From the NCBI GenBank assembly GCA_963744905.1, contig CAVUUV010000003.1:513503-577502 (forward strand): a DNA stretch of 64,000 nucleotides, read 5' to 3'. The translations under genes and the position numbers were made by a program. The notes below the pieces were generated by a model. That model was not told the DNA's origin. It ran no database searches and worked only from the letters and a program-made list of their open reading frames with translations. Shown here one piece after another: positions 21,620-61,536 of this stretch; positions within the stretch are counted from its first letter, which is position 1; every line of letters begins with the position of its first letter. Source of the DNA: an uncultured Acidimicrobiia bacterium. Lineage in GTDB: Bacteria > Actinomycetota > Acidimicrobiia > Spongiisociales > ZC4RG35.

Positions 21620-21727
21620 TTCTTTGGACGCTGAGGAACGCCCCTCCCCTTCTTTGGACCGTCGCCGTCGCTATGCGTTCCTGGCGGTCCAAAGAAGCCG
21701 TAAACCGTTCCCCGGGGTCCAAAGAAC
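21620..21727. repeat. Palindromic repeat element, copy A: TTCTTTGGAC-N20-TTCTTTGGACCG-loop23-CGGTCCAAAGAA-N18-GGTCCAAAGAA
   Basis: Four 10-mers as two direct plus two inverted copies. The loop contains TCGCTATGCGTTC, which is also the core of copy B at 51174-51280. Lies between the 3' end of the Lon-PDZ gene and the 5' end of the DivIVA-like gene. Confidence 0.6.
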
Positions 21728-44667: not shown

Positions 44668-46458
44668 CTGCCCATCGAGGACTACGCCTTCCTGTCCGAC
44701 TGCCACTCGACCGCTCTGGTCAGCAAGGAGGGTTCCATCGATTGGGCATGCTCCCGCCGATTCGACCACGGCAGCGTTTTCGGGCGTCTTCTCGACTTCG
44801 ATCGAGGCGGCTACTTTTCCATCCGCCCCTCCGGCAACATAGAAGAAGTCTCCCGACGCTATCTCCCCTCGACCCTGGTTCTGGAAACCACCATGAAGAC
44901 CAGGACGGGAACCATCCGCCTGATCGACGCCTTCGCCATGCGCAGTGGAGGAGCCGCCAACCCGAGAGCACAACTGATGCGCCGGATCGAAGGGGTGCAG
45001 GGAGAAGTCGAGGTGACGGTGGACATCGAACCCCGATTCGAATACGGATCGGTGCAGCCCTGGCTTCGTGACCATGGGAACGGGACGTTCAGCGCCGTGG
45101 GTGGTGAGGATGCGCTCGTCATCCACACCGACATCGACCTGGCGTTGGACCGAGAGAGTTTCTCGTTGAGCGCCACCACAACGGTAGGAGAGGGGGAATC
45201 CAGGACGGTGACGGCGGTGTCACAACCCGCCCACCTGATCGACATCTCCCAGGCCGACGCGAGCGCAGTGGCCGAATACCTGCAAGAAACCGTCGAGTGG
45301 TGGGAACAGTGGTCAGAGGCCACCGACGTCTCGGGGCCTTTCTCGGACCTGCTGTCGAGATCGGCGGTAGTTCTGAAGGGACTGTGCTGTGCCCCCACCG
45401 GAGCCGTGATCGCTGCCCCCACCACCTCGCTCCCGGAGGTGGTGGGCGGATCCTGGAACTGGGATTATCGCTACTGCTGGATTCGGGATGCCACCCTCAC
45501 CCTCGAGGCCCTGAGCGAGGTGGGTCATCTCGAGGTGGCCCAGGGGTTTCGCGACTTCGTGATGAGGTCGTCGGCCGGGCACGGCCGGGAGCTGCAGGTG
45601 CTGTTCGGGCCCTATGGCGAGAGACGCCTGACCGAGGTCGAGCTCGACCTGGAAGGTTGGCGGGAATCGCGTCCGGTTCGCATCGGCAACCGGGCCGCCG
45701 GCCAGACCCAGCTCGACGTGTACGGGCACCTACTGGACGCGGCTCATCTCTGGCAGCGCCGCGATACCGCAATCGACCCGGACGAATGGCGCTTTCTGGC
45801 CACGGTCGTGGGTGAGGCGGTGAGACGCCGGGAGGAGCCGGATCAGGGTGTCTGGGAGCTTCGGGGAGCCCCCCGCCAGTACGTCCATTCCAAGGTGATG
45901 GTGTGGGTGGCAATCGATCGGGGCATCCGCATCGTGGAGGAGAACGACCTCGAAGATCCCGGAGTCGATCTTGGCTCGTGGCGCCGGGCTCGGGACGAGG
46001 TTCGTCACGCGGTGGAGACCCGCGGTATCGATCCGGACCGCGGCAACTTCGTCCAGCATTTCGGGGCGACGGAAGTGGACGCCAGCCTGCTCAAGCTACC
46101 CCTGGTGGGCTTCGTCGACGCCAACGACGAACGCATGATCACCACCGTCGACGCCATAAGGAAGGAACTCGCCGTGGAGCCGACCGGATTCCTGCGTCGC
46201 TACCGCAGCGACGACGAGGAAGGCGTGTTCCTGCTGTGCTCGTTCTGGCTGGTCGAGATCCTCGCCTTGCAGGGGAAGGTCGATGAGGCCCGAGAGCTGT
46301 TCGAGAGACTGACCTCGGTCGGAAACGACCTCGGCCTGTTCGCCGAAGAGTACGACGTGCCCCGGAGTGAACTGGTGGGCAACTTCCCCCAGGCCTACAC
46401 CCATCTTGGACTGATAGCAGCCGAGAAACGACTCCGAAAGGCGACGGCCAACGGATAG
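44668..46458 (+). CDS. Glycoside hydrolase family 15 (glucoamylase/trehalase-like) protein
   Basis: The conserved GH15 N-terminus (P)IEDYAFLSDCHSTALVSKEGSIDWACSRRFDHGSVFGRLLD lies in frame upstream of the first ATG at 44893. No ATG/GTG/TTG occurs between the upstream stop (44584) and this motif, so the start is assigned provisionally to CTG 44668. Confidence 0.6.
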   Translation: MPIEDYAFLSDCHSTALVSKEGSIDWACSRRFDHGSVFGRLLDFDRGGYFSIRPSGNIEEVSRRYLPSTLVLETTMKTRTGTIRLIDAFAMRSGGAANPRAQLMRRIEGVQGEVEVTVDIEPRFEYGSVQPWLRDHGNGTFSAVGGEDALVIHTDIDLALDRESFSLSATTTVGEGESRTVTAVSQPAHLIDISQADASAVAEYLQETVEWWEQWSEATDVSGPFSDLLSRSAVVLKGLCCAPTGAVIAAPTTSLPEVVGGSWNWDYRYCWIRDATLTLEALSEVGHLEVAQGFRDFVMRSSAGHGRELQVLFGPYGERRLTEVELDLEGWRESRPVRIGNRAAGQTQLDVYGHLLDAAHLWQRRDTAIDPDEWRFLATVVGEAVRRREEPDQGVWELRGAPRQYVHSKVMVWVAIDRGIRIVEENDLEDPGVDLGSWRRARDEVRHAVETRGIDPDRGNFVQHFGATEVDASLLKLPLVGFVDANDERMITTVDAIRKELAVEPTGFLRRYRSDDEEGVFLLCSFWLVEILALQGKVDEARELFERLTSVGNDLGLFAEEYDVPRSELVGNFPQAYTHLGLIAAEKRLRKATANG

Positions 46459-46570: not shown

Positions 46571-46915
46571 GTGCCGAGCGAGGAATTCATCGCCAAACCG
46601 GAATCGGTGGTTGCCGTGCGCACATTTGTCAGAGACTTCCTCGGTGAGGCACCATACGTCGACGACGTGACCTTGGTCGCATCGGAACTGGCCACGAATG
46701 TCGTCAACCACGCCCACACCGACTTCACGGTCGAGATCGCACAAAACACCCACGTCACGCTTACGGTTTCCGATGGCTCCTCCATCATCCCCGCCGTAGA
46801 GGACCTGACCTCCGACCAGCGTGGTCTCAAGATCGTGGAGCGGATCAGCTCGGAATGGGGTATCGAGACCACTCCGACCGGCAAGGCCATCTGGGCCAAG
46901 TTCCCAACACGTTGA
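46571..46915 (+). CDS. Anti-sigma regulatory factor-like ATP-binding protein (RsbW/SpoIIAB-type HATPase_c)
   Basis: GTG start. ...VRTFVRDFLGEAPYVDDVTLVASELATNVVNHA...GLKIVERISSEWG.... No anti-anti-sigma partner is adjacent. Confidence 0.55.
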   Translation: MPSEEFIAKPESVVAVRTFVRDFLGEAPYVDDVTLVASELATNVVNHAHTDFTVEIAQNTHVTLTVSDGSSIIPAVEDLTSDQRGLKIVERISSEWGIETTPTGKAIWAKFPTR

Positions 46916-46960: not shown

Positions 46961-47497
46961 TCAGCCCGGAGCCTCGGCCTTATCCACGGATTCCAGCCAC
47001 TCGAGGTGTTCGGTCTTCAGTGCCCGAATCGCCTCCAGCATGTCGGGAGCCTGCTTGGAGGCTGAGGCGGGATCGAAACGCCGCGCCACCTTCCCATGGC
47101 GATCTACGACGAACGTGACCCTGTGCACTGCACCGTCTGGATCGGCCACCCCGAACCGGCGAGCCATATCGCCCCCGGCGTCCGCCAGCAGGGGTAACGA
47201 CAGGTCCATCTCGTCCGAGAGATCGCGCGCCTGTCGGGCCGTGATCCTGGCAACTCCCATTACCTGGGAGGTTTCCTGGCCGAAGTCTTTCAGAAGCCGG
47301 TCGTACCCGGCAAGCAGCGACCTGTCGGTCTCGGACTCCGGGTCGGGCAGGAAGAAGATGACCATGGGCATCTTGCCCAGGTATGCGTCTCGATCGAGAG
47401 TCTGCCCGGTGCTGGCGGGCAGACTGAAGGGCGGGATCATTTCTCCGGTTTCAACACTCATCTCACCGGGTTCCCTACCCGGTCTCAGAATCGGCAA
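46961..47497 (-). CDS. Redoxin-fold (thioredoxin-like, AhpC/TSA-related) protein lacking the usual peroxidatic cysteine
   Basis: ...IPPFSLPASTGQTLDRDAYLGKMPMVIFFLPD... with no Cys in the active-site position. Confidence 0.5.
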   Translation of the reverse strand: MPILRPGREPGEMSVETGEMIPPFSLPASTGQTLDRDAYLGKMPMVIFFLPDPESETDRSLLAGYDRLLKDFGQETSQVMGVARITARQARDLSDEMDLSLPLLADAGGDMARRFGVADPDGAVHRVTFVVDRHGKVARRFDPASASKQAPDMLEAIRALKTEHLEWLESVDKAEAPG

Positions 47498-47540
47498 ACC
47501 GGACGGGTCGGCGCCGGGTCCTACGATCGGGTGAAGGACG

Positions 47541-48401
47541 ATGAGTCGGATCAGGATCGGGCTGTCGGGCTGGAGTTACGACGAATGGCGAGGAGACTTC
47601 TATCCAGAGGGATTGGCCAAGAGCAAGGAACTGGGCTTTGCGGCCGGTCGCTTCGACACCCTCGAGATCAACGGAACCTTCTACGGGTTGACCACTCCCC
47701 GCGCCTCTCGTAGCTGGTACGAGGCAGCTCCGTCCGACTTCCAGTACGCGGTCAAGGCCAGCCGCTACATCACCCACAACAAGAAGCTGGTCGATTGCGA
47801 TTCGGCAGTTGCCAACTTCTTCGCTTCGGGGATCCTCGAGCTGGATGACAAGCTGGGGCCGATCCTGTGGCAGCTACCCCCAACCCTGCACTTTCATCCG
47901 GCGAACGTGGACGAATTCCTCCAGCTGTTGCCGAAGGACACCTATGGGGCGGCCGGCCGGGCCCGCCACCATGATGATCGAGTCAAGTCGACCTCATTTG
48001 GCCCCGGCACCAACCATCGCCTTCGACACGTGCTCGAACTGCGGCACGAGAGCTTCTTCGTCCCCGAGATGGTGACCCTGGCCCACCGCCACGGCGTGGC
48101 CCTGGCCTTTTCCCATGCCTCCGATTTCCCCTTCACCGAACAGGTCACGGCCGGATTCGTCTACATCCGTCTTCACGGCCCGGGACAGGCCTACGCCAGC
48201 CCCTACGACGATGCCCAGATACGCCGTTGGGCAGACCGGGCCCGGACCTGGCATAAAGGGGAAGAGCCGTCCGACGCCGTCCGGATCAGCGACCGCCGCC
48301 CCCCGGCGCGGAAAGGGAGGGATGTCTACGTCTACTTCGACAACGACGTCGGTGGCCACGCCCCCCGCCAAGCGCGCCGGCTGCGTGAGCTGATCGAATA
48401 A
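47541..48401 (+). CDS. DUF72 (UPF0759) family protein
   Basis: MSRIRIGLSGWSYDEWRGDFYP...FDTLEINGTFYG...ILWQLPP... matches DUF72 motifs. Confidence 0.7.
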   Translation: MSRIRIGLSGWSYDEWRGDFYPEGLAKSKELGFAAGRFDTLEINGTFYGLTTPRASRSWYEAAPSDFQYAVKASRYITHNKKLVDCDSAVANFFASGILELDDKLGPILWQLPPTLHFHPANVDEFLQLLPKDTYGAAGRARHHDDRVKSTSFGPGTNHRLRHVLELRHESFFVPEMVTLAHRHGVALAFSHASDFPFTEQVTAGFVYIRLHGPGQAYASPYDDAQIRRWADRARTWHKGEEPSDAVRISDRRPPARKGRDVYVYFDNDVGGHAPRQARRLRELIE

Positions 48402-48464
48402 CCCGGGATCCGCCGGCTTCTTGGTGGGTGGTGCGATTCGTCCGAAGCGCCCGAATGGGCGAAT

Positions 48465-48740
48465 CTAGGAACGTGAGCCGCTGCGCAGAGCCTTGATCAG
48501 CTCCCGCTTGGACATCTTCGAGCGTCCTTCGATCCCGACGTCTTTGGCCTTGTCGTACAGCTCCTGCTTGGTCCACTCCTCGTACGAGCCCCCACGTTCC
48601 CGTCGTCGGGCTGCCTGCTTGGGGGGGGTATTGGCGATACGAGCCGCCTTCTCCTTGCTCATCCCCTCGCGACGAAGGGCTTCGTAGCGATCGGGATCCT
48701 TGACACTGGGGCCGGGCCCAGACTTCTTGGGCATTGACAA
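48465..48740 (-). CDS. Small basic protein with C-terminal Rho-N/SAP-like motif
   Basis: 91-aa Lys/Arg/Glu-rich protein. The C-terminal EGRSKMSKRELIKALR resembles the Rho termination factor N-terminal helix-turn-helix. Confidence 0.45.
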   Translation of the reverse strand: MSMPKKSGPGPSVKDPDRYEALRREGMSKEKAARIANTPPKQAARRRERGGSYEEWTKQELYDKAKDVGIEGRSKMSKRELIKALRSGSRS

Positions 48741-48892
48741 CCTCCTTCTTGAGTCGGCGGGATCTACCCGTCCTGTGTCAACTCAATCCAACCTTCGGAG
48801 TTGATCGGGCCTCGATGGGACTCGACTCCAGTAATCCTGTTTGACATTCTGGTGACAGGGGTAGAGCAGCGTCACGAGAAAAGGAGACTGTC

Positions 48893-49042
48893 ATCAACGC
48901 TGCCCTTATTATCCTGCTAATCGCTCTGCTCCTCGGCGGAGTCGGCTTGTTCGTCGAGGCTCTGCGCTGGGTCCTCATTATCGCACTGGTTCTGCTCGTT
49001 ATATCAGCCTTTACCGGTTATCGGAGCCGGCGCGTCGTCTGA
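48893..49042 (+). CDS. Possible about 50-aa two-TM peptide (UPF0391/DUF1328-like) with no canonical start codon
   Basis: VINAALIILLIALLLGGVGLFVEALRWVLIIALVLLVISAFTGYRSRRVV lies in an AT-richer island. An AAAGGAG Shine-Dalgarno sits 5-8 nt upstream of GTC/ATC codons, and no ATG/GTG/TTG is in frame. Confidence 0.3.
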   Translation: MNAALIILLIALLLGGVGLFVEALRWVLIIALVLLVISAFTGYRSRRVV

Positions 49043-49153
49043 CCCAACACAGCACAACCTGCCAAATACACCAACAAGCCCGGATCCGGCCGAAGATCTT
49101 CGACCGCTTTCCGGGCTTGTTGGCGCCCCACGAAGGACAACCGACGAACGCCT

Positions 49154-49621
49154 ATGTCTGAGAACGCCCACCACGACAGCTCCGAGGATCGACAACGCTA
49201 TGAGGAGCTGCTCTCCGAAATCCGGGTGATGTTGCCCGGGGTGGAGGTGCTGTTCGCCTTCCTCCTCACCTCGGTATTCTCGAGTCGCTTCGAGTTGGTG
49301 GATGACGTCGGACAGATCCTCTACCTGGTGGCATTGATCGCCGCAGCTCTGACCATTCTCCTTCTCACCGTTCCGGCATTTCTCCACAGGCTGTCGGCCG
49401 TCTCGAGGGAGACGAGAGTCAGCCTGGCTACCAACTTCCAGCTGATCGGCTCGATCTCGCTCGGGGTCAGCGTCTGTGCGGGTCTCTTCGTGGTCGTCAG
49501 ATTCGTCTTCAGCCAACCCTTCGCCATCTGGGTAACAGCATTCGTAGGCCTGGCCTGGGTCATTCTCTGGTACGTGATCCCTTTCGCGATGGGTCGTTCG
49601 CCAAACGGCACCAGGGCGTGA
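49154..49621 (+). CDS. DUF6328 family membrane protein
   Basis: ...RYEELLSEIRVMLPGVEVLFAFLLTSVFSSRF..., a family typical of actinobacteria, with three TM helices. Confidence 0.5.
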   Translation: MSENAHHDSSEDRQRYEELLSEIRVMLPGVEVLFAFLLTSVFSSRFELVDDVGQILYLVALIAAALTILLLTVPAFLHRLSAVSRETRVSLATNFQLIGSISLGVSVCAGLFVVVRFVFSQPFAIWVTAFVGLAWVILWYVIPFAMGRSPNGTRA

Positions 49622-49719
49622 CGGGGTTCTCTCTGCCGACGTTTGAAACGGGCGGGCAGCGGGTATCGGTGGGTCTATCACCAACCAATTCGGGTACCTG
49701 TGCCCAGGAAAGGAGCAAA

Positions 49720-49779
49720 ATGTACATCGGTATAGGCACGCTGATACTGATCATCCTCGTCGCTCTCCTTCTCTTCTGA
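49720..49779 (+). CDS. Candidate 19-aa hydrophobic micropeptide MYIGIGTLILIILVALLLF
   Basis: Strong Shine-Dalgarno GGAAAGGAG 6 nt upstream of the ATG. Entirely hydrophobic and located in an AT-richer island. Below ORF-track cut-offs. Confidence 0.3.
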   Translation: MYIGIGTLILIILVALLLF

Positions 49780-49831
49780 GCGGCGATCAGAGAATCGAGA
49801 AAGAGGATTATTGAAGGAATTTTGATTTGAT

Positions 49832-50461
49832 ATGACCAACAAGACCTACATCCATGGGGCCGAGGTAAGCACGGCTTCCGTCCGGGAGAGGTTCGGCGGG
49901 GTAGACACCCCGTCCGCCATCCTCGGCATGCTCACCGCATTGGGGGTCCTGGTGTTCCTCGGTGCATTGATAACGGCAGGGGCAGGAAACATGCCCTACC
50001 AGCTCAATGCCTACGACATCCAGGGCAACCTGCAGGCGCTGACCATCGGCGGAGTCGCCGTAGCGATCGTCGTGGTCTTCGTATCCTTCTTCGTCGGCGG
50101 TTGGTCCGCCGGCCGAATGGCCCGATACGACGGAGGAATCAACGGCATAGGCGTGGCGCTATGGGCCCTGCTCCTGGTGGCGATATTCGCTGCCCTCGGA
50201 GCCTGGGCGGGGAGCGAATACAACGCCTTCCAGCAGGTCGGCCTGCCCGACTGGTTCTCCCAGATCCGGGGAGACGACATCACCCTCATCGCAGTCATCT
50301 CGGCGGCGGTGGCGGTCGTCGTCATGTTCGTGGGCGCCTACCTAGGGGGGCGAATGGGCGAGCTGTATCACCGCAAGGCGGATGCCGCCCTGGCCGACCA
50401 GGTCATGGCGTCGGCCGTCACGAACCGGGGCCGGGCTCCTGTCAGCGAGGTGCAGTCATGA
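49832..50461 (+). CDS. Hypothetical membrane protein with an internally duplicated TM pair
   Basis: 209 aa. Two similar halves each contain GGWSAGRMA / GAYLGGRMG after paired TM helices. Confidence 0.5.
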   Translation: MTNKTYIHGAEVSTASVRERFGGVDTPSAILGMLTALGVLVFLGALITAGAGNMPYQLNAYDIQGNLQALTIGGVAVAIVVVFVSFFVGGWSAGRMARYDGGINGIGVALWALLLVAIFAALGAWAGSEYNAFQQVGLPDWFSQIRGDDITLIAVISAAVAVVVMFVGAYLGGRMGELYHRKADAALADQVMASAVTNRGRAPVSEVQS

Positions 50462-50823
50462 CACCCGCCGTGTTATCCAGCTCGACCCTGAAAGGTGACG
50501 ACATCGTCAACACCGCCGGGCACAAGCTCGGCACGCTCGAGGAGATCATGATCGACCTCACCAGCGGCGGGGTGGCGTACGCAGTCCTGGCCCGTGGCGG
50601 AATCGCGGGCATGGGACGCAAGCTCTTCGCCGTTCCCTGGCAGCTGATCAGCGTGGACGGCGACAACAAGCGCCTCGTCCTCGATGTCGAGGAGCGAGAG
50701 ATAGACGATGCCCCGGGATTCGATCCAGACAACTGGCCCACACTTGACGACGACTGGCATGGTGCCGTGCACCGCCACTACGGAGTCAGTCCGGGCTGGG
50801 ATCCGGCTCCGCCACTGACCTGA
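50458..50823 (+). CDS. PRC-barrel domain protein
   Basis: MTPAVLSSSTLKGDDIVNTAGHKLGTLEEIMIDLTSGGVAYAVLARGG...KLFAVPWQLI. ATGA overlap with the upstream membrane protein gene. Confidence 0.6.
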   Translation: MTPAVLSSSTLKGDDIVNTAGHKLGTLEEIMIDLTSGGVAYAVLARGGIAGMGRKLFAVPWQLISVDGDNKRLVLDVEEREIDDAPGFDPDNWPTLDDDWHGAVHRHYGVSPGWDPAPPLT

Positions 50824-50897
50824 GACGTCCCGGATCCACATATAGAGAGGGCCGGCCCATCTGGGCCGGCCCTCTCGTTCGATCGAAGCCTTCAGGC

Positions 50898-51089
50898 TCA
50901 CACGTCGAGACGATCCTTGATCTTCTCGGCACTCTCGCCGGTTCGCTCCTTGATCCGTCCCACGAGCTCGTCGTAGTTGCCCTCGGCAACGTCGAGGTCG
51001 TCGTCGGTCAGGTTGCCCCAGGCCTGCTTGGCACGGCCTTTGAGCTGGTCCCAGCGACCTTCCCACTTGGTCTGTTTGGCGTCGGTCAT
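50898..51089 (-). CDS. CsbD-family general stress protein
   Basis: MTDAKQTKWEGRWDQLKGRAKQAWGNLTDDDLDVAEGNYDELVGRIKERTGESAEKIKDRL. Confidence 0.6.
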   Translation of the reverse strand: MTDAKQTKWEGRWDQLKGRAKQAWGNLTDDDLDVAEGNYDELVGRIKERTGESAEKIKDRLDV

Positions 51090-51173
51090 GACACTCCTTC
51101 TGTGTCGCGTTCGACCCTGAACTACCCCGCTAGGTCCCGGTTCAAACCGCTCACAACCCCGGCCGGGCGTCGT

Positions 51174-51280
51174 TTCTTTGGACACTCACGAACGCTTCCC
51201 AGCTTCTTTGGACCGTGACTATCGCTATGCGTTCGCCACGGTCCAAAGAAGGGGAGGGGCGTTCCCCACGGTCCAAAGAA
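51174..51280. repeat. Palindromic repeat element, copy B (same architecture as 21620-21727)
   Basis: TTCTTTGGAC at 51174 and 51204; GTCCAAAGAA at 51241 and 51271; loop contains TCGCTATGCGTTC. Lies between the 3' end of qcrB and the CsbD gene. Confidence 0.6.
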
Positions 51281-51333
51281 AGGGGTGCAAGTAGCCCTCC
51301 CCCGACGTCCGGCGCGGGGAACGCCCCTCGGGG

Positions 51334-52686
51334 TCAGGTCTGGCGGCGGAACCAGCGCAGCACTGCTCCGGCCGGCATCTCGGAGAGGCGTTCGGCATCG
51401 GAGCCGGCCAGGCTCTTGAGAAGGACGTAGGTGATCACCCCCACCACCACCGGCAGGATCACCACCAGCCACCGGAATGTGAGGGTGATGTCGTGAACGT
51501 CGGCCCGGAACCATCTGGCGATCAGGTCGTTGGAGCCCGCGAAGAAGAGCACCGCGTAGAAGACGAGGGTGGTGAGACCGAGCGAGGTCCGCACCGGCCG
51601 ATCCCGGGGCCGGTCCAACAAGTTGTGCATGGCGCGGTCGCCGGTCAGGCGCGCCTCCAGGAACGGCCACGCATACAACAGCAGGAAGGTGATCCCGGGA
51701 AGGAGGACACCGGGAAAGAAGGGGTTGGGTATCTCGTGCCCGAACATGGTGATGTCCCAAGAGGGAAAGATCCGCAGCGCCCCCTCCAGCCAGCCCAGGT
51801 ACCAGTCGGGCTGGGCGGGTGACGTGACCTGGGCCGGGTTGTAGGGCCCGTACAGCCACACCGGGTTGATCTGGACCAGACCGCCCAGGGTCATCACCAC
51901 GGCCGCCACCATGAAGAACAGGCCCACCGACTTGACGGCGTAGGAGGGCCACAACCGGGAGCCCACCACGTTGTCCTCGGTCCGGCCCTCCTCCGGAAAC
52001 TGGGTGTGCTTCTGGTGCCAGACCAGGGCCAGATGGATGGAGAGGAGGATGCCGATGGCGATCGGCACCAGCATGATGTGGATCGAGTAGAGGCGGGGAA
52101 TGATTCCCTCGGCCGGGTACTCACCCCCGAAAACGAGGTAGGCGACCCAGGGTCCCACAACCGGAATGGACAGGGCGATCGAGTAGAAGACTCGTAATCC
52201 TGTGCCCGACAGGATGTCATCAGGGAGCGAATAGCCGGTGAAGCCGTTGAAGATGGCGGCCAGCAACAGGGTCACGCCCACCAGCCAGTTGATATCGCGT
52301 GGACGGCGGAACGCCCCCGTGAAGAAGATCCGGGTCAGGTGGACGACGATGGCAGCCACGAAAACGAGCGCCGCCCAATGGTGGGCCTGGCGCATCACCA
52401 ATCCGGCCCGGGTCTTGAAGCTGATGTCCAGCACCGACCGATAGGCCTGTGAAACCTCCACCCCGTGCAGCGGGGCGTAAGAGCCCCGGTAGACGACTTC
52501 GGTCTGGCTGGGATCGAAGAAGAAGGTCAGGAACACACCGGTGAGGACCAGCACGATGAATGCATAGAGGGCCACCTCGCCCAGCATGAACGACCAGTGG
52601 TCGGGAAACACCTTGTCCAGGGTGCGACGGGCGAAGGATGAGGCGTCGAGGCGGTCGTCGATCCCCTCCATCCAACGCTCAATCAT
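51334..52686 (-). CDS. qcrB: Cytochrome bc1 complex cytochrome b subunit
   Basis: 450 aa with the cytochrome b helices and conserved His ligands (...RQAHHWAALVFV..., ...YSIHIMLVPIAIGILLSIHLALV...). Confidence 0.85.
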   Translation of the reverse strand: MIERWMEGIDDRLDASSFARRTLDKVFPDHWSFMLGEVALYAFIVLVLTGVFLTFFFDPSQTEVVYRGSYAPLHGVEVSQAYRSVLDISFKTRAGLVMRQAHHWAALVFVAAIVVHLTRIFFTGAFRRPRDINWLVGVTLLLAAIFNGFTGYSLPDDILSGTGLRVFYSIALSIPVVGPWVAYLVFGGEYPAEGIIPRLYSIHIMLVPIAIGILLSIHLALVWHQKHTQFPEEGRTEDNVVGSRLWPSYAVKSVGLFFMVAAVVMTLGGLVQINPVWLYGPYNPAQVTSPAQPDWYLGWLEGALRIFPSWDITMFGHEIPNPFFPGVLLPGITFLLLYAWPFLEARLTGDRAMHNLLDRPRDRPVRTSLGLTTLVFYAVLFFAGSNDLIARWFRADVHDITLTFRWLVVILPVVVGVITYVLLKSLAGSDAERLSEMPAGAVLRWFRRQT

Positions 52687-61055: not shown

Positions 61056-61131
61056 CCACAATCGACTCGCACCCCCGTTTGAGGGCCGGGCGGGCCGGGT
61101 AAGCCTCACCACCCGAAGCGAGAGGGAGCTA

Positions 61132-61536
61132 ATGAAACGCACCATGTTCGTCACTGCCATCACTGCTGCGATGTGTCTGACGCTTGCGGCCTGTACCGGC
61201 ACCACCCAGTCGAGCCTGACAAGCCTGAGCTCTGACACCGCCAACGCCATATCCGAAATCCAGTCCTCGGTGTCTCAGCTGTCGGATCAGATCGACGCCT
61301 CGGCCCTGTCCGCCGACCTGAAATCCACCTGGAACGATCAGAAGGCAGAAATCAGCCAGGCCATCGACGACATCATGGCGGGGCGATCAATCGACACGGC
61401 CCAGCTGCAACAGTCGATGCAGGACTTCCGCTCCGCAATCGAGTCGAGTGGCGCCGAACAGAACCTGAAGGACGTCTGGACGAAACTGCAAAACGACGTC
61501 GAGTCGGTCCTGAATCAGGTCCAGAGCACAGGCTGA
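61132..61536 (+). CDS. Hypothetical lipoprotein (helical, Ser/Gln-rich)
   Basis: Lipobox MKRTMFVTAITAAMCLTLAACTG, then low-complexity helical sequence. Lower GC than its surroundings. Confidence 0.45.
   Translation: MKRTMFVTAITAAMCLTLAACTGTTQSSLTSLSSDTANAISEIQSSVSQLSDQIDASALSADLKSTWNDQKAEISQAIDDIMAGRSIDTAQLQQSMQDFRSAIESSGAEQNLKDVWTKLQNDVESVLNQVQSTG

What the first reader, a model, noticed from the sequence alone, without database searches (positions are those of the whole stretch)
48465..51089. Cluster of small and micro-proteins in AT-richer islands: Rho-N-like, UPF0391-like without a start codon, DUF6328, 19-aa hydrophobic peptide, duplicated-TM protein, PRC-barrel, CsbD
Local GC drops around 48780-49100 and 49690-49830, where strong Shine-Dalgarno sites precede very small hydrophobic ORFs. 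One is a roughly 50-aa two-TM peptide whose frame contains no ATG/GTG/TTG after the SD. The other is a 19-aa all-hydrophobic peptide, MYIGIGTLILIILVALLLF. Together with the PRC-barrel (ATGA-coupled to a membrane protein), CsbD and DUF6328, this resembles a general-stress or dormancy membrane-protein islet. The micropeptides could be proteolipid-like regulators or type I toxin-like peptides; none would be annotated automatically.
Basis: partly seen in the sequence, partly recalled or inferred. Interest (0 to 1): 0.55.

Follow-up and report, generated by a model that had tools for sequence, protein, structure and literature searches.

The report
Hidden stress-regulon membrane microprotein genes
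This stretch of an Acidimicrobiia genome is a cluster of small stress-response genes that hides two real but unannotated membrane peptide genes: a 19-residue one conserved letter-for-letter across distant bacteria, and a 49-residue one that starts at the rare codon ATC.

Summary
All five annotated-type genes are present: DUF7218/Rho_N, DUF6328, a 4-helix membrane protein "M209", an ATGA-coupled PRC-barrel, and CsbD. Both micro-ORFs are genuine coding genes.

ORF B (49720-49779, MYIGIGTLILIILVALLLF) is exactly 19 codons in 51 of 53 related genomes and in 81 of 82 copies found by an ORF-B-first metagenome scan. Y2, I3, G6 and L17 are invariant despite free synonymous change, and all three stop codons occur. 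It always lies next to M209/PRC in Acidimicrobiia, in five different gene orders. It also occurs alone in other high-GC lineages and in Sphingomonadaceae-like contigs.

ORF A (48893-49042) belongs to a family of about 190 clusters of roughly 49-aa hydrophobic proteins. Here, and in two other lineages, it starts at ATC, 5-6 nt after AAGGAG, with its N-terminal helix under purifying selection.

ORF A, ORF B and csbD each sit behind GTTT-N16-GGGTA, the SigF/SigB-type stress promoter. That motif occurs 5 times in the window against 0.38 expected, and about 100-fold above expectation in related loci. The Sphingomonad-like ORF B copies sit behind GGAAC-N18-GTT, an EcfG-type motif.

The UPF0391 label, the TatA resemblance, the type I toxin reading and the leader-peptide reading are not supported. 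Biochemical function is inferred only.

The parts
48465..48734 (-). DUF7218 + Rho_N small soluble protein (89 aa). SD GGAGG lies 6 nt before the ATG. Only a degenerate stress-promoter match upstream (GTTG-N19-GGGTA).
   Evidence: Pfam DUF7218 64.9 bits and Rho_N 28.5 bits. Recurs next to DUF6328/M209 in many loci. Absent at this position in the close relative L002.
48839..48863 (+). SigF/SigB-type promoter motif GTTTGA-N14-GGGTA (GTTT-N16-GGGTA), 29 nt upstream of the ORF A start.
   Evidence: the same motif lies at the same place in L002, and a GTTT-N15-GGGTA in L004. The consensus is taken from PMC4694148.
48881..48886 (+). Shine-Dalgarno AAGGAG of ORF A.
   Evidence: Sequence. Conserved in L002 and L004, 5-6 nt before ATC.
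48893..49042 (+). ORF A: a 49-codon hydrophobic protein (I/fMet-NAALIILLIALLLGGVGLFVEALRWVLIIALVLLVISAFTGYRSRRVV) initiating at ATC.
   Evidence: Family of 456 hits, mostly 49 aa, with M/V at the position of our ATC, and 191 50%-identity clusters. ATC is shared by L002/L003 and by L004/L005. For codons 2-18, window vs L002 shows 7 synonymous and 1 non-synonymous difference, and there is no conserved internal canonical start. AF2 pLDDT is 89, all-helical.
49071..49123 (+). Strong hairpin after ORF A, a probable terminator without a U-tract.
   Evidence: -37 kcal/mol, z = -6.8. A different-sequence hairpin of -46 kcal/mol lies at the same place in L002.
49154..49621 (+). DUF6328 integral membrane protein (155 aa).
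   Evidence: Pfam 99.1 bits. Recurs as DUF7218(-)/DUF6328(+)/[ORF A]/M209/ORF B blocks.
49641..49665 (+). SigF/SigB-type promoter motif GTTT-N16-GGGTA, 54 nt upstream of ORF B.
   Evidence: The same motif lies 25-62 nt upstream of ORF B in 25 genome loci. 93 of 125 ORF B modules carry it within 160 nt upstream of their first gene.
49710..49715 (+). Shine-Dalgarno AAGGAG of ORF B.
   Evidence: A GGAG-type SD is present upstream of nearly all of the 56 copies listed.
49720..49779 (+). ORF B: a 19-residue all-hydrophobic single-helix microprotein, MYIGIGTLILIILVALLLF.
   Evidence: Exactly 19 codons in 51/53 genome loci and in 81/82 metagenome copies. M1, Y2, I3, G6 and L17 are invariant with multiple synonymous codons, all three stop codons are used, and pN/pS is 0.32. 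In L002 the peptide is identical with 5 synonymous changes. No Pfam or NCBIfam model matches it.
49832..50461 (+). M209: a 209-aa, 4-TM membrane protein of an Actinomycetota family with no curated model. It is co-transcribed with ORF B.
   Evidence: 411 homologues. TIGR04086 scores only 19.5 bits against a cutoff of 30. AF2 pLDDT 79 with 4 TM helices plus a C-terminal helix. No PDB fold match. The 52-nt ORF B-M209 spacer is unstructured.
50458..50823 (+). PRC-barrel protein (121 aa), translationally coupled to M209 by an ATGA overlap.
   Evidence: Pfam PRC 48.9 bits. Adjacent to M209/ORF B in 32/53 genome loci.
50845..50876 (.). 14-bp GC-rich hairpin between the convergent PRC and csbD genes, a probable bidirectional terminator.
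   Evidence: -39.6 kcal/mol, z = -4.8.
50898..51089 (-). CsbD-family protein (63 aa).
   Evidence: Pfam CsbD 59.7 bits. Recurs within 4 kb of M209 in many loci.
51123..51147 (-). SigF/SigB-type promoter motif GTTT-N16-GGGTA, 33 nt upstream of csbD.
47476..47499 (-). Context: a fourth GTTT-N15-GGGTA motif in front of an AhpC/TSA peroxiredoxin (46961-47461, -). An RsbW-like anti-sigma kinase gene lies at 46571-46915(+).

Best explanation
The window carries a conserved general-stress gene neighbourhood of an Acidimicrobiia bacterium. It is organised as several short transcription units, each driven by a group-3 SigB/SigF-type stress sigma promoter (GTTT-N16-GGGTA).

Two of these units encode genuine, unannotated membrane microproteins.

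(1) ORF A is monocistronic: promoter, AAGGAG, ATC start, 49 codons, terminator hairpin. It belongs to an uncurated actinobacterial family of about 49-aa hydrophobic proteins with the motif LLGGVGLFVEALRW. In this lineage the ancestral ATG/GTG has become ATC. The near-cognate AUC is read by initiator tRNA at low efficiency, so output is throttled but the protein is still made.

(2) ORF B is the first cistron of an ORF B-M209-PRC operon. It encodes a 19-residue peptide just long enough to span a bilayer. Its invariant small-residue N-terminal motif, M-Y-I-G/S-x-G-T/G, offers a helix-packing face.

Inferred mechanism: under stress the sigma factor switches on the set. ORF B inserts as a single transmembrane helix and packs, through its Gly face, against itself or against the 4-TM M209 protein. 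M209 in turn works with the soluble PRC-barrel protein. Together with ORF A, DUF6328 and CsbD this remodels or protects the membrane.

Shown: coding status, conservation, gene linkage, the promoter motif and its enrichment, and ATC conservation.

Inferred: sigma-factor dependence, actual initiation at AUC, membrane insertion, the ORF B-M209 contact, and the physiological role.
For: Coding status of ORF B:
- 51/53 M209-anchored genome loci carry a 19-codon ORF with an SD.
- An independent ORF-B-first scan gave 81 loci, with 81/82 copies 19 codons long.
- Invariant residues use 2-5 synonymous codons each, and all three stop codons occur.
- The peptide MYIGIGGLILLILILILIF is identical in an Acidimicrobiia MAG, a GC-0.69 contig and a Sphingomonad-like contig, at only 45-51/60 nt identity.

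Linkage:
- Five gene orders all keep ORF B co-oriented and within about 200 nt of M209 or PRC.
- 57/81 metagenome copies are adjacent to M209.
- There is no RNA structure between ORF B and M209.

Coding status of ORF A:
- 456 homologues, about 103 of the top 120 starting exactly at the aligned position.
- ATC plus AAGGAG is conserved in three assemblies and lineages.
- Codons 2-18 are under purifying selection: 7 synonymous and 1 non-synonymous codon differences.
- The in-frame TTG at codon 19 is CTA in L002 and CTG in L004.
- AUC initiates at 1-2% of AUG with N-terminal Met in E. coli (10.1101/063800).

Regulon:
- The motif occurs 5 times in the window against 0.38 expected, 4 of them within 47.4-51.2 kb.
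- 168 observed against 1.6 expected in genome loci, and 245 against 2.5 in metagenome loci. Spacing is N16 in 293/419.
- 93/125 ORF B modules carry the motif upstream of their first gene.
- The motif equals the M. smegmatis SigF consensus (PMC4694148) and resembles the B. subtilis/Streptomyces SigB consensus (PMC8346170).
- An RsbW-like kinase gene lies 2 kb away.
- The seven Sphingomonad-like ORF B copies carry GGAAC-N18-GTT. This fits the S. melonis EcfG motif GGAAC-N17-20-GTT, and that regulon includes a PRC-barrel gene (PMC6599016).
Against: - There is no expression, Ribo-seq or proteomic data. Sigma dependence rests on a motif only.
- DUF6328 and DUF7218 lack a clean motif in this window.
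- ORF B occurs without any detectable M209 neighbour in 21/81 metagenome loci, including alphaproteobacterial ones where M209 homologues were not seen. An obligate ORF B-M209 complex therefore cannot be general.
- No ORF B-M209 fusion exists among the 120 listed M209 homologues.
- ORF B is absent at the syntenic site of named Sphingomicrobium/Sphingomonas genomes, so its distribution is patchy.
- AF2 models ORF A as one continuous helix, so the two-TM hairpin topology is unverified.
- AUC is a weak start, so ORF A could be poorly expressed here.
Confidence: 0.72

Rival explanations
1. ORF B is an autonomous stress proteolipid that needs no M209. It homo-oligomerises in the membrane and changes its permeability, packing or potential by itself. 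Its adjacency to M209/PRC in Acidimicrobiia reflects only co-regulation.
For: It stands alone in 21/81 loci, with its own stress-type promoter and often its own hairpin. These include Sphingomonad-like contigs. The sequence is extremely conserved across phyla. No fusion with M209 was found.
Against: In Acidimicrobiia, adjacency survives five different gene orders in 51/53 genomes. That is the classical signature of a functional, usually physical, partnership. This rival overlaps with the best explanation rather than excluding it.
Confidence: 0.3
2. ORF A is a decaying pseudogene in this lineage: the start codon was lost (ATG to ATC) and the ORF is no longer translated.
For: There is no canonical start between the SD and codon 19. 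AUC gives only about 1-2% of AUG in E. coli. Most family members use ATG/GTG.
Against: The same ATC plus SD persists in three diverged lineages at 86-96% aa identity, in different genomic contexts. Synonymous changes outnumber non-synonymous ones 7:1 to 19:1, and there are no frameshifts or stops. The promoter and terminator are retained.
Confidence: 0.1
3. ORF B (and/or ORF A) is a type I toxin held in check by an antisense RNA.
For: The peptides are tiny and purely hydrophobic. 3/40 ORF A family members give sub-threshold Pfam Ibs_toxin hits, best E = 0.067.
Against: No SigF-like or sigma-70-like promoter lies antisense within or up to 250 nt downstream of any of 136 ORF B copies. There is no Rfam hit. 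ORF B is a fixed operon partner of M209/PRC, has a strong SD, is conserved across phyla, and has no viral copies. None of this is typical of type I toxins.
Confidence: 0.04
4. ORF B is a cis-acting leader peptide (uORF) whose translation or membrane targeting controls the downstream gene. The peptide itself has no function.
For: In the window it precedes M209 by 52 nt, and in many loci it precedes M209 or PRC.
Against: It is the last gene of the module in 10 of the 53 genome loci (M209>ORF B) and in further metagenome loci with the same order, and it stands alone with a downstream hairpin in others. Spacer length varies from -5 to 197 nt and has no structure. Selection acts on every residue, including exact length.
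Confidence: 0.05
5. ORF B is a TatA-derived transmembrane fragment that modulates the Tat translocase.
For: The best library hit is to the TatA N-terminal helix: NCBIfam PRK14861 at E = 0.0011, 18.4 bits, and Pfam TatA_B_E at E = 0.25. The peptide ends where TatA has its F-G hinge.
Against: The score is far below the cutoff of 62 bits. F19 is not invariant (F 40, T 10, A 5 of 55). There is no hinge Gly and no amphipathic helix. The similarity can be explained by hydrophobic composition.
Confidence: 0.03

Closest known systems
Small hydrophobic stress proteins of general-stress regulons: UPF0391/YtjA (DUF1328), DUF3309, Pmp3/YqaE (UPF0057), GlsB/YeaQ/YmgE
   Same: These are 50-80-aa, almost purely hydrophobic membrane proteins. 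They are co-regulated with CsbD and PRC-barrel proteins by SigB-, SigF- or EcfG-type stress sigma factors, and their biochemical role is largely unknown. ORF A matches them in size and context.
   Different: No statistical homology. ORF A scores 14 bits against a cutoff of 52 for UPF0391, and only 5/40 family members give weak DUF3309 hits. ORF B is less than half their size, has a single helix and matches no curated model.
Single-helix accessory microproteins of membrane complexes (KdpF, CydX, AcrZ, MgtR; Prli42 of the Listeria stressosome)
   Same: A tiny single-TM peptide encoded in the same operon as its membrane partner and usually missed by annotation. Prli42 is also tied to the SigB stress pathway. 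This comparison rests on my own knowledge of these proteins.
   Different: Those peptides are 29-49 aa, carry charged termini and are narrowly distributed. ORF B is 19 aa with no charged residue, is conserved across phyla, and also occurs without its putative partner. No interaction has been demonstrated.
Mycobacterial SigF / Bacillus and Streptomyces SigB regulons; alphaproteobacterial EcfG regulon
   Same: The promoter architecture GTTT-N15-17-GGGTA (PMC4694148) and GGAAC-N17-20-GTT (PMC6599016). The regulon content, including CsbD, PRC-barrel, peroxiredoxin and small hypothetical membrane proteins. An RsbW-like kinase gene lies nearby.
   Different: The sigma factor of this Acidimicrobiia MAG is not identified in the window. 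Dependence is inferred from the motif alone.
Genes with near-cognate AUU/AUC start codons (infC and pcnB in E. coli)
   Same: A conserved non-AUG/GUG/UUG start at optimal distance from a strong SD, which lowers or conditions translation.
   Different: Here the codon is AUC and the gene is a hydrophobic microprotein. No IF3-linked autoregulatory logic is evident. Only a sub-clade of the family has it.
TIGR04086 / DUF3792 (YrzE-like) membrane proteins, as the nearest model for M209
   Same: A multi-helix small membrane protein. The weak local match covers TM2-TM3 (E = 8e-4).
   Different: Below the cutoff (19.5 against 30 bits). M209 is longer, with a conserved cytoplasmic N-terminal motif (RERFGGxD) and a C-terminal helix. 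It has no solved structural relative.

Membership tests
CsbD (PF05532) | Profile match above the gathering score over the whole ~53-residue domain | tested here: met
   59.7 bits against 40, covering profile positions 2-53/53.
PRC-barrel (PF05239) | Profile match above the gathering score | tested here: met
   48.9 bits against 21.2.
DUF6328 (PF19853) | Profile match above the gathering score | tested here: met
   99.1 bits against 26.3.
DUF7218 + Rho_N | Both domain profiles above their gathering scores | tested here: met
   64.9 against 27 bits, and 28.5 against 24.9 bits.
UPF0391 / DUF1328 (YtjA), for ORF A | Match to the family profile (NCBIfam PRK13682, Pfam PF07043) | tested here: not met
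   14 bits against a cutoff of 52. None of 40 family members hits PF07043 at E<=0.1.
ORF A family ('hydrophobic protein', LLGGVGLFVEALRW motif; uncurated) | Full-length similarity, length of about 49 aa, and invariant G15, G16, E22, W26, G42, R46 | tested here: met
   E down to 4e-16, 80-97% identity over the aligned part, all invariant columns present.
ORF A family | Canonical ATG/GTG start at the aligned first codon | tested here: not met
   The window has ATC, as do L002/L003 and L004/L005. About 103/120 relatives have M or V there.
TatA/TatE (for ORF B) | Profile match; an N-terminal TM helix followed by an F-G hinge and an amphipathic helix | tested here: not met
   18.4 bits against a cutoff of 62. 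The peptide ends at residue 19, with no hinge Gly or amphipathic helix, and F19 is variable.
Type I toxin-antitoxin | An antisense or overlapping sRNA gene paired with the toxin ORF | tested here: not met
   No Rfam hit. No SigF-like or sigma-70-like antisense promoter in 136 copies. Other promoter types were not excluded.
Type I toxin-antitoxin | Toxicity on overexpression | not testable with these tools
   Needs an experiment.
SigF/SigB-type (group 3) stress promoter | -35 GTTT and -10 GGGTA separated by 14-17 nt, at a suitable distance upstream of the gene | tested here: met
   The motif lies 29, 54 and 33 nt upstream of ORF A, ORF B and csbD. It is about 100-fold enriched, with spacing peaking at N16, in related loci.
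SigF/SigB-type (group 3) stress promoter | Transcription dependent on the sigma factor and induced by stress | not testable with these tools
   No transcript data. An RsbW-like kinase gene is nearby.
Cis-acting leader peptide / uORF | Always immediately upstream of the regulated gene, coupled to an RNA switch | tested here: not met
   It is the last gene in 10 of the 53 genome loci and in further metagenome loci, and stands alone in 21 of the 81 metagenome loci. The spacer is unstructured.
TIGR04086 / DUF3792 (for M209) | Profile match above the cutoff | tested here: not met
   19.5 against 30 bits for TIGR04086, and 13 against 31.3 bits for DUF3792.

The most novel reading that the evidence does not exclude
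ORF B defines an unrecognised family of 19-residue transmembrane microproteins, among the shortest conserved bacterial proteins. The family is a shared effector of the general stress response in unrelated phyla. It is driven by SigB/SigF-type promoters in Actinomycetota and by EcfG-type promoters in Sphingomonadaceae. Its sequence is so constrained that identical peptides persist across phyla despite saturated synonymous change. This implies a universal membrane target or a self-assembling structure, not a lineage-specific partner.
Probability: 0.45. Interest if true: 0.75.

Novelty: new variant of a known kind. Interest (0 to 1): 0.62.

Why it matters
General stress regulons are full of small hydrophobic proteins of unknown function, and the smallest ones are invisible to gene callers.

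This is a 19-codon gene with near-perfect conservation, fixed operon partners (a 4-TM protein and a PRC-barrel protein) and recognisable stress promoters in two phyla. That makes a tractable entry point. The peptide can be synthesised chemically, tagged and deleted, and its partners are named.

It also shows that annotation pipelines miss conserved genes shorter than 30 codons and genes with ATC starts. The ORF A case adds a phylogenetically conserved AUC initiation codon in Actinomycetota. That could be used to study near-cognate initiation under stress.

Tried and rejected
- Protein-database search with ORF B is impossible: the minimum query is 40 aa. It was replaced by a degenerate-DNA scan of metagenomes.
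- The AFDB fold library was unavailable. The Foldseek/PDB search with the M209 model gave nothing (best E = 1.1).
- Internal duplication of M209: BLASTP E = 62. hhalign of the two halves gave probability 12% over 17 columns. The result is too weak to claim.
- Homology between ORF A and ORF B: none (hhalign).
- ORF B fused to M209 homologues: none among the 120 listed homologues.
- Rfam at gathering and at E<=1: only a tRNA elsewhere and a chance miRNA-like hit on the palindromic repeat.
- The simple sigma-70 promoter scan found nothing in the region.
- Viral contigs: no ORF B.
- Literature string searches for the peptide sequences: no paper.
- I looked for ORF B in named Sphingomonas mesophila, Sphingomicrobium and Sphingomonas sp. 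genomes at the syntenic SLT/radical-SAM site. It is absent there.
- The 31-aa TTG-initiated version of ORF A was rejected, because that TTG is not conserved and the upstream helix is under selection.
- The upstream ATG starts chosen by gene callers (L002, 69 aa; L004, 58 aa) were also rejected. The L002 ATG lies inside the -35 box, and the extensions vary non-synonymously between close relatives. A leaderless ATG start cannot be fully excluded for L004.

Full report
**What is there**

The window comes from an Acidimicrobiia MAG. The 209-aa membrane protein is 100% identical to NCBI "MAG: Acidimicrobiia bacterium" WB239_08750 on a 1.09-Mb contig. Reading 48000-51600, listing ORFs and scanning Pfam/NCBIfam confirm the following genes:
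- DUF7218 + Rho_N, 48465-48734(-)
- DUF6328, 49154-49621(+)
- a 209-aa membrane protein, "M209", 49832-50461(+)
- a PRC-barrel protein, 50458-50823(+), overlapping M209 in ATGA
- CsbD, 50898-51089(-)

GC does dip, to 0.53-0.58 around 48750-49100 and to 0.43-0.52 around 49700-49850. These stretches are promoter/intergenic DNA plus Leu/Ile-rich codons.

**ORF B, the 19-aa peptide (49720-49779)**

*Conservation near M209.* I retrieved relatives through the neighbouring M209 protein, not through the peptide. That gave 53 loci from GTDB genomes, almost all Acidimicrobiia MAGs. A mechanical scan found a 19-codon ORF of pattern MYI[G/S]xG[T/G/A]... in 51 of the 53. One of the two exceptions is truncated at the contig end. 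Almost every copy has a GGAG-type SD 4-9 nt upstream.

*Selection on the peptide.* Across 55 copies, M1, Y2, I3, G6 and L17 are invariant while using 2-5 synonymous codons each. All three stop codons occur. Length never varies. pN/pS is 0.32 with saturated pS. The closest relative, L002, whose neighbouring proteins are 81-87% identical, has the identical peptide with five synonymous codon changes and diverged flanks.

*Gene order.* ORF B is always co-oriented with, and within about 200 nt of, M209 or PRC, yet in five different orders: M209>B>PRC 15, B>M209>PRC 10, B>M209 10, M209>B 10, and B>PRC>M209 4, plus two-copy variants. Adjacency that survives rearrangement argues for a functional partnership. 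Being last in the operon, or alone, argues against a cis-acting leader peptide.

*Independent search from the peptide.* A degenerate DNA pattern for the first 14 codons was scanned through JGI metagenomes and returned 81 loci. Length was not imposed, yet 81 of 82 copies are 19 codons. Of these loci, 57 have M209 adjacent and 3 are cut next to PRC. A block DUF7218(-)/DUF6328(+)/[ORF A]/M209/ORF B recurs, which is the window's own gene set.

*Copies without M209.* Twenty-one loci have ORF B with no M209 nearby. Seven of them share the synteny SLT transglycosylase - ORF B - PA0069 radical-SAM protein. The radical-SAM protein of L134 is 84-86% identical to Sphingomicrobium/Sphingomonas proteins, so these are Sphingomonadaceae-like Alphaproteobacteria. 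The peptide MYIGIGGLILLILILILIF is identical in an Acidimicrobiia MAG (L034), a GC-0.69 contig (L061) and a Sphingomonad-like contig (L066), with only 45-51 of 60 nucleotides shared. This reflects protein-level constraint, not recently transferred DNA. The distribution is patchy, because named Sphingomonas mesophila, Sphingomicrobium and Sphingomonas sp. genomes lack it at that site.

*Database and literature status.*
- No Pfam or NCBIfam model covers it. The best hit is the TatA N-terminal helix at 18 bits against a cutoff of 62.
- No paper in the library contains the peptide strings.
- No viral contig carries it.

**ORF A, the ~50-aa peptide (48893-49042)**

The frame is open from the TGA at 48842. 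It contains no ATG/GTG/TTG before codon 19 of the conserved protein. The translated sequence hits 456 proteins, mostly exactly 49 aa, with the motif LLGGVGLFVEALRW. An exhaustive profile search gives 191 clusters at 50% identity.

About 103 of the top 120 relatives start with M or V at exactly the position where the window has ATC. The residue is I only in the window's nearest relatives, P0001 and P0006-8, and in one further cluster, P0384.

The DNA shows ATC 5-6 nt after AAGGAG in L002/L003 and in L004/L005. The latter pair is from different samples and a different genomic context, so this is not a sequencing error.

Between window and L002, codons 2-18 differ at 7 synonymous and 1 non-synonymous codon, and codons 19-49 at 19 and 1. 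The window's TTG at codon 19 is CTA in L002 and CTG in L004. The N-terminal helix is therefore translated, and the only conserved candidate start is ATC. AUC supports initiation at 1-2% of AUG, with N-terminal Met, in E. coli (10.1101/063800).

A strong hairpin follows the ORF (-37 kcal/mol, z = -6.8). L002 has a different-sequence hairpin at the same place (-46 kcal/mol). ORF A is thus a monocistronic promoter-SD-ORF-terminator unit.

It is not UPF0391: 14 bits against 52, and no DUF1328 hit in 40 members. AF2 gives a confident all-helical model but a single continuous helix, so the two-TM hairpin remains an inference from the two hydrophobic runs.

**Regulation**

GTTT-N16-GGGTA lies 29 nt before ORF A, 54 nt before ORF B and 33 nt before csbD. 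A fourth copy precedes an AhpC/TSA peroxiredoxin at 47.4 kb and a fifth precedes a lipoprotein at 61.1 kb. That is 5 matches against 0.38 expected.

The motif is the experimentally derived M. smegmatis SigF consensus GTTT-N(14-19)-GGGTA (PMC4694148). It is close to the B. subtilis/Streptomyces SigB consensus (PMC8346170).

In related loci the motif occurs 168 times against 1.6 expected (genomes) and 245 against 2.5 (metagenomes). Spacing is N16 in 293 of 419. 93 of 125 ORF B modules carry it within 160 nt upstream of their first gene.

An RsbW-like anti-sigma kinase gene sits at 46571-46915.

All seven Sphingomonad-like ORF B copies instead carry GGGAAC-N18-GTT about 70 nt upstream. This fits the S. 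melonis EcfG motif GGAAC-N17-20-GTT, whose regulon also contains a PRC-barrel gene (PMC6599016). Sigma dependence is inferred from these motifs and has not been shown.

**M209 and PRC**

M209 has 411 homologues and only sub-threshold TIGR04086/DUF3792 similarity. Its AF2 model shows four TM helices and a C-terminal helix (pLDDT 79), and it has no solved structural relative. The suggested internal duplication is weak. The 52-nt ORF B-M209 spacer is unstructured. A 14-bp hairpin after PRC serves the convergent csbD as well.

**Interpretation**

Both micropeptides are real genes that pipelines miss: on the identical contig L001 neither is called, and on L002 ORF A is mis-started and ORF B is absent.

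The type I toxin idea is not supported. No antisense promoter motif appears in 136 copies, there is no Rfam hit, and the peptide has a fixed operon context and cross-phylum conservation. The TatA resemblance does not meet the family's defining features.

The most likely mechanism is as follows, and it is inferred. Stress-sigma-driven expression produces a single-helix microprotein. It packs through its invariant small-residue N-terminal face, either with itself or with the 4-TM M209/PRC module. The ATC-throttled ORF A, DUF6328 and CsbD act alongside it to protect or remodel the membrane.

**Novelty**

The kind is known: small hydrophobic proteins of general stress regulons, and microprotein subunits. 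ORF B, however, is a new, uncurated family of unusual brevity and conservation, with apparent dual-phylum stress control. ORF A adds a conserved AUC start.

Noticed in passing
window 51173-51281 and 21620-21726: A ~110-nt palindromic element made of two 30-nt direct units (TTCTTTGGAC + 20 nt) followed by their inverted copies (...GTCCAAAGAA). The GGTCCAAAGAA core occurs 8 times in the window against 0.66 expected, always in this 2+2 arrangement. It looks like a REP/MITE-like intergenic repeat. Here it sits between the csbD promoter and the 3' end of the cytochrome b gene.
   Followed up: partly
window 46571-46915 (+) and 46961-47461 (-): An RsbW-like anti-sigma serine kinase (HATPase_c_2, 36.8 bits) lies next to an AhpC/TSA peroxiredoxin. 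The peroxiredoxin has its own GTTT-N15-GGGTA motif (47499-47476, -). No sigma factor gene is adjacent.
   Followed up: partly
window 61077-61101 (+), gene 61132-61536 (+): A fifth SigF/SigB-type promoter motif precedes a 134-aa lipoprotein-like protein (signal peptide + Cys) with weak apolipophorin-III-like helical repeats.
   Followed up: partly
L002 1212-1417 versus window 48401-48893: The DUF7218/Rho_N gene is absent between DUF72 and ORF A in the closest relative L002. It is therefore a lineage-specific insertion or deletion within the islet.
   Followed up: no
L026, L052, L091, L132; L100 6495-6620: Some loci carry two ORF B copies, tandem or divergent. They often pair one 'IGIGT' type with one 'ISIGG/IGLGG' type. 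L100 (GC 0.74) has a 20-aa variant ending in R, followed by a second small hydrophobic ORF (MIYIPVGLILLI...).
   Followed up: no
related loci L006-L139: The neighbourhoods of M209/ORF B are extraordinarily dense in GTTT-N16-GGGTA motifs, up to 12 in 8.5 kb (for example L046 and L031). This suggests large stress-regulon islands in Acidimicrobiia genomes.
   Followed up: partly
window 48893-49042 (model m44541f57b0a8): AlphaFold2 predicts ORF A as one uninterrupted 46-residue helix (pLDDT 89) and not as a hairpin, despite the invariant GGxG and E22/R25/W26 between the two hydrophobic runs. The topology is unresolved.
   Followed up: partly
window 44893-46458 (+): A GH15 glucoamylase/trehalase-type glycosyl hydrolase lies immediately upstream of the RsbW-like gene. 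It may belong to the same stress neighbourhood.
   Followed up: no
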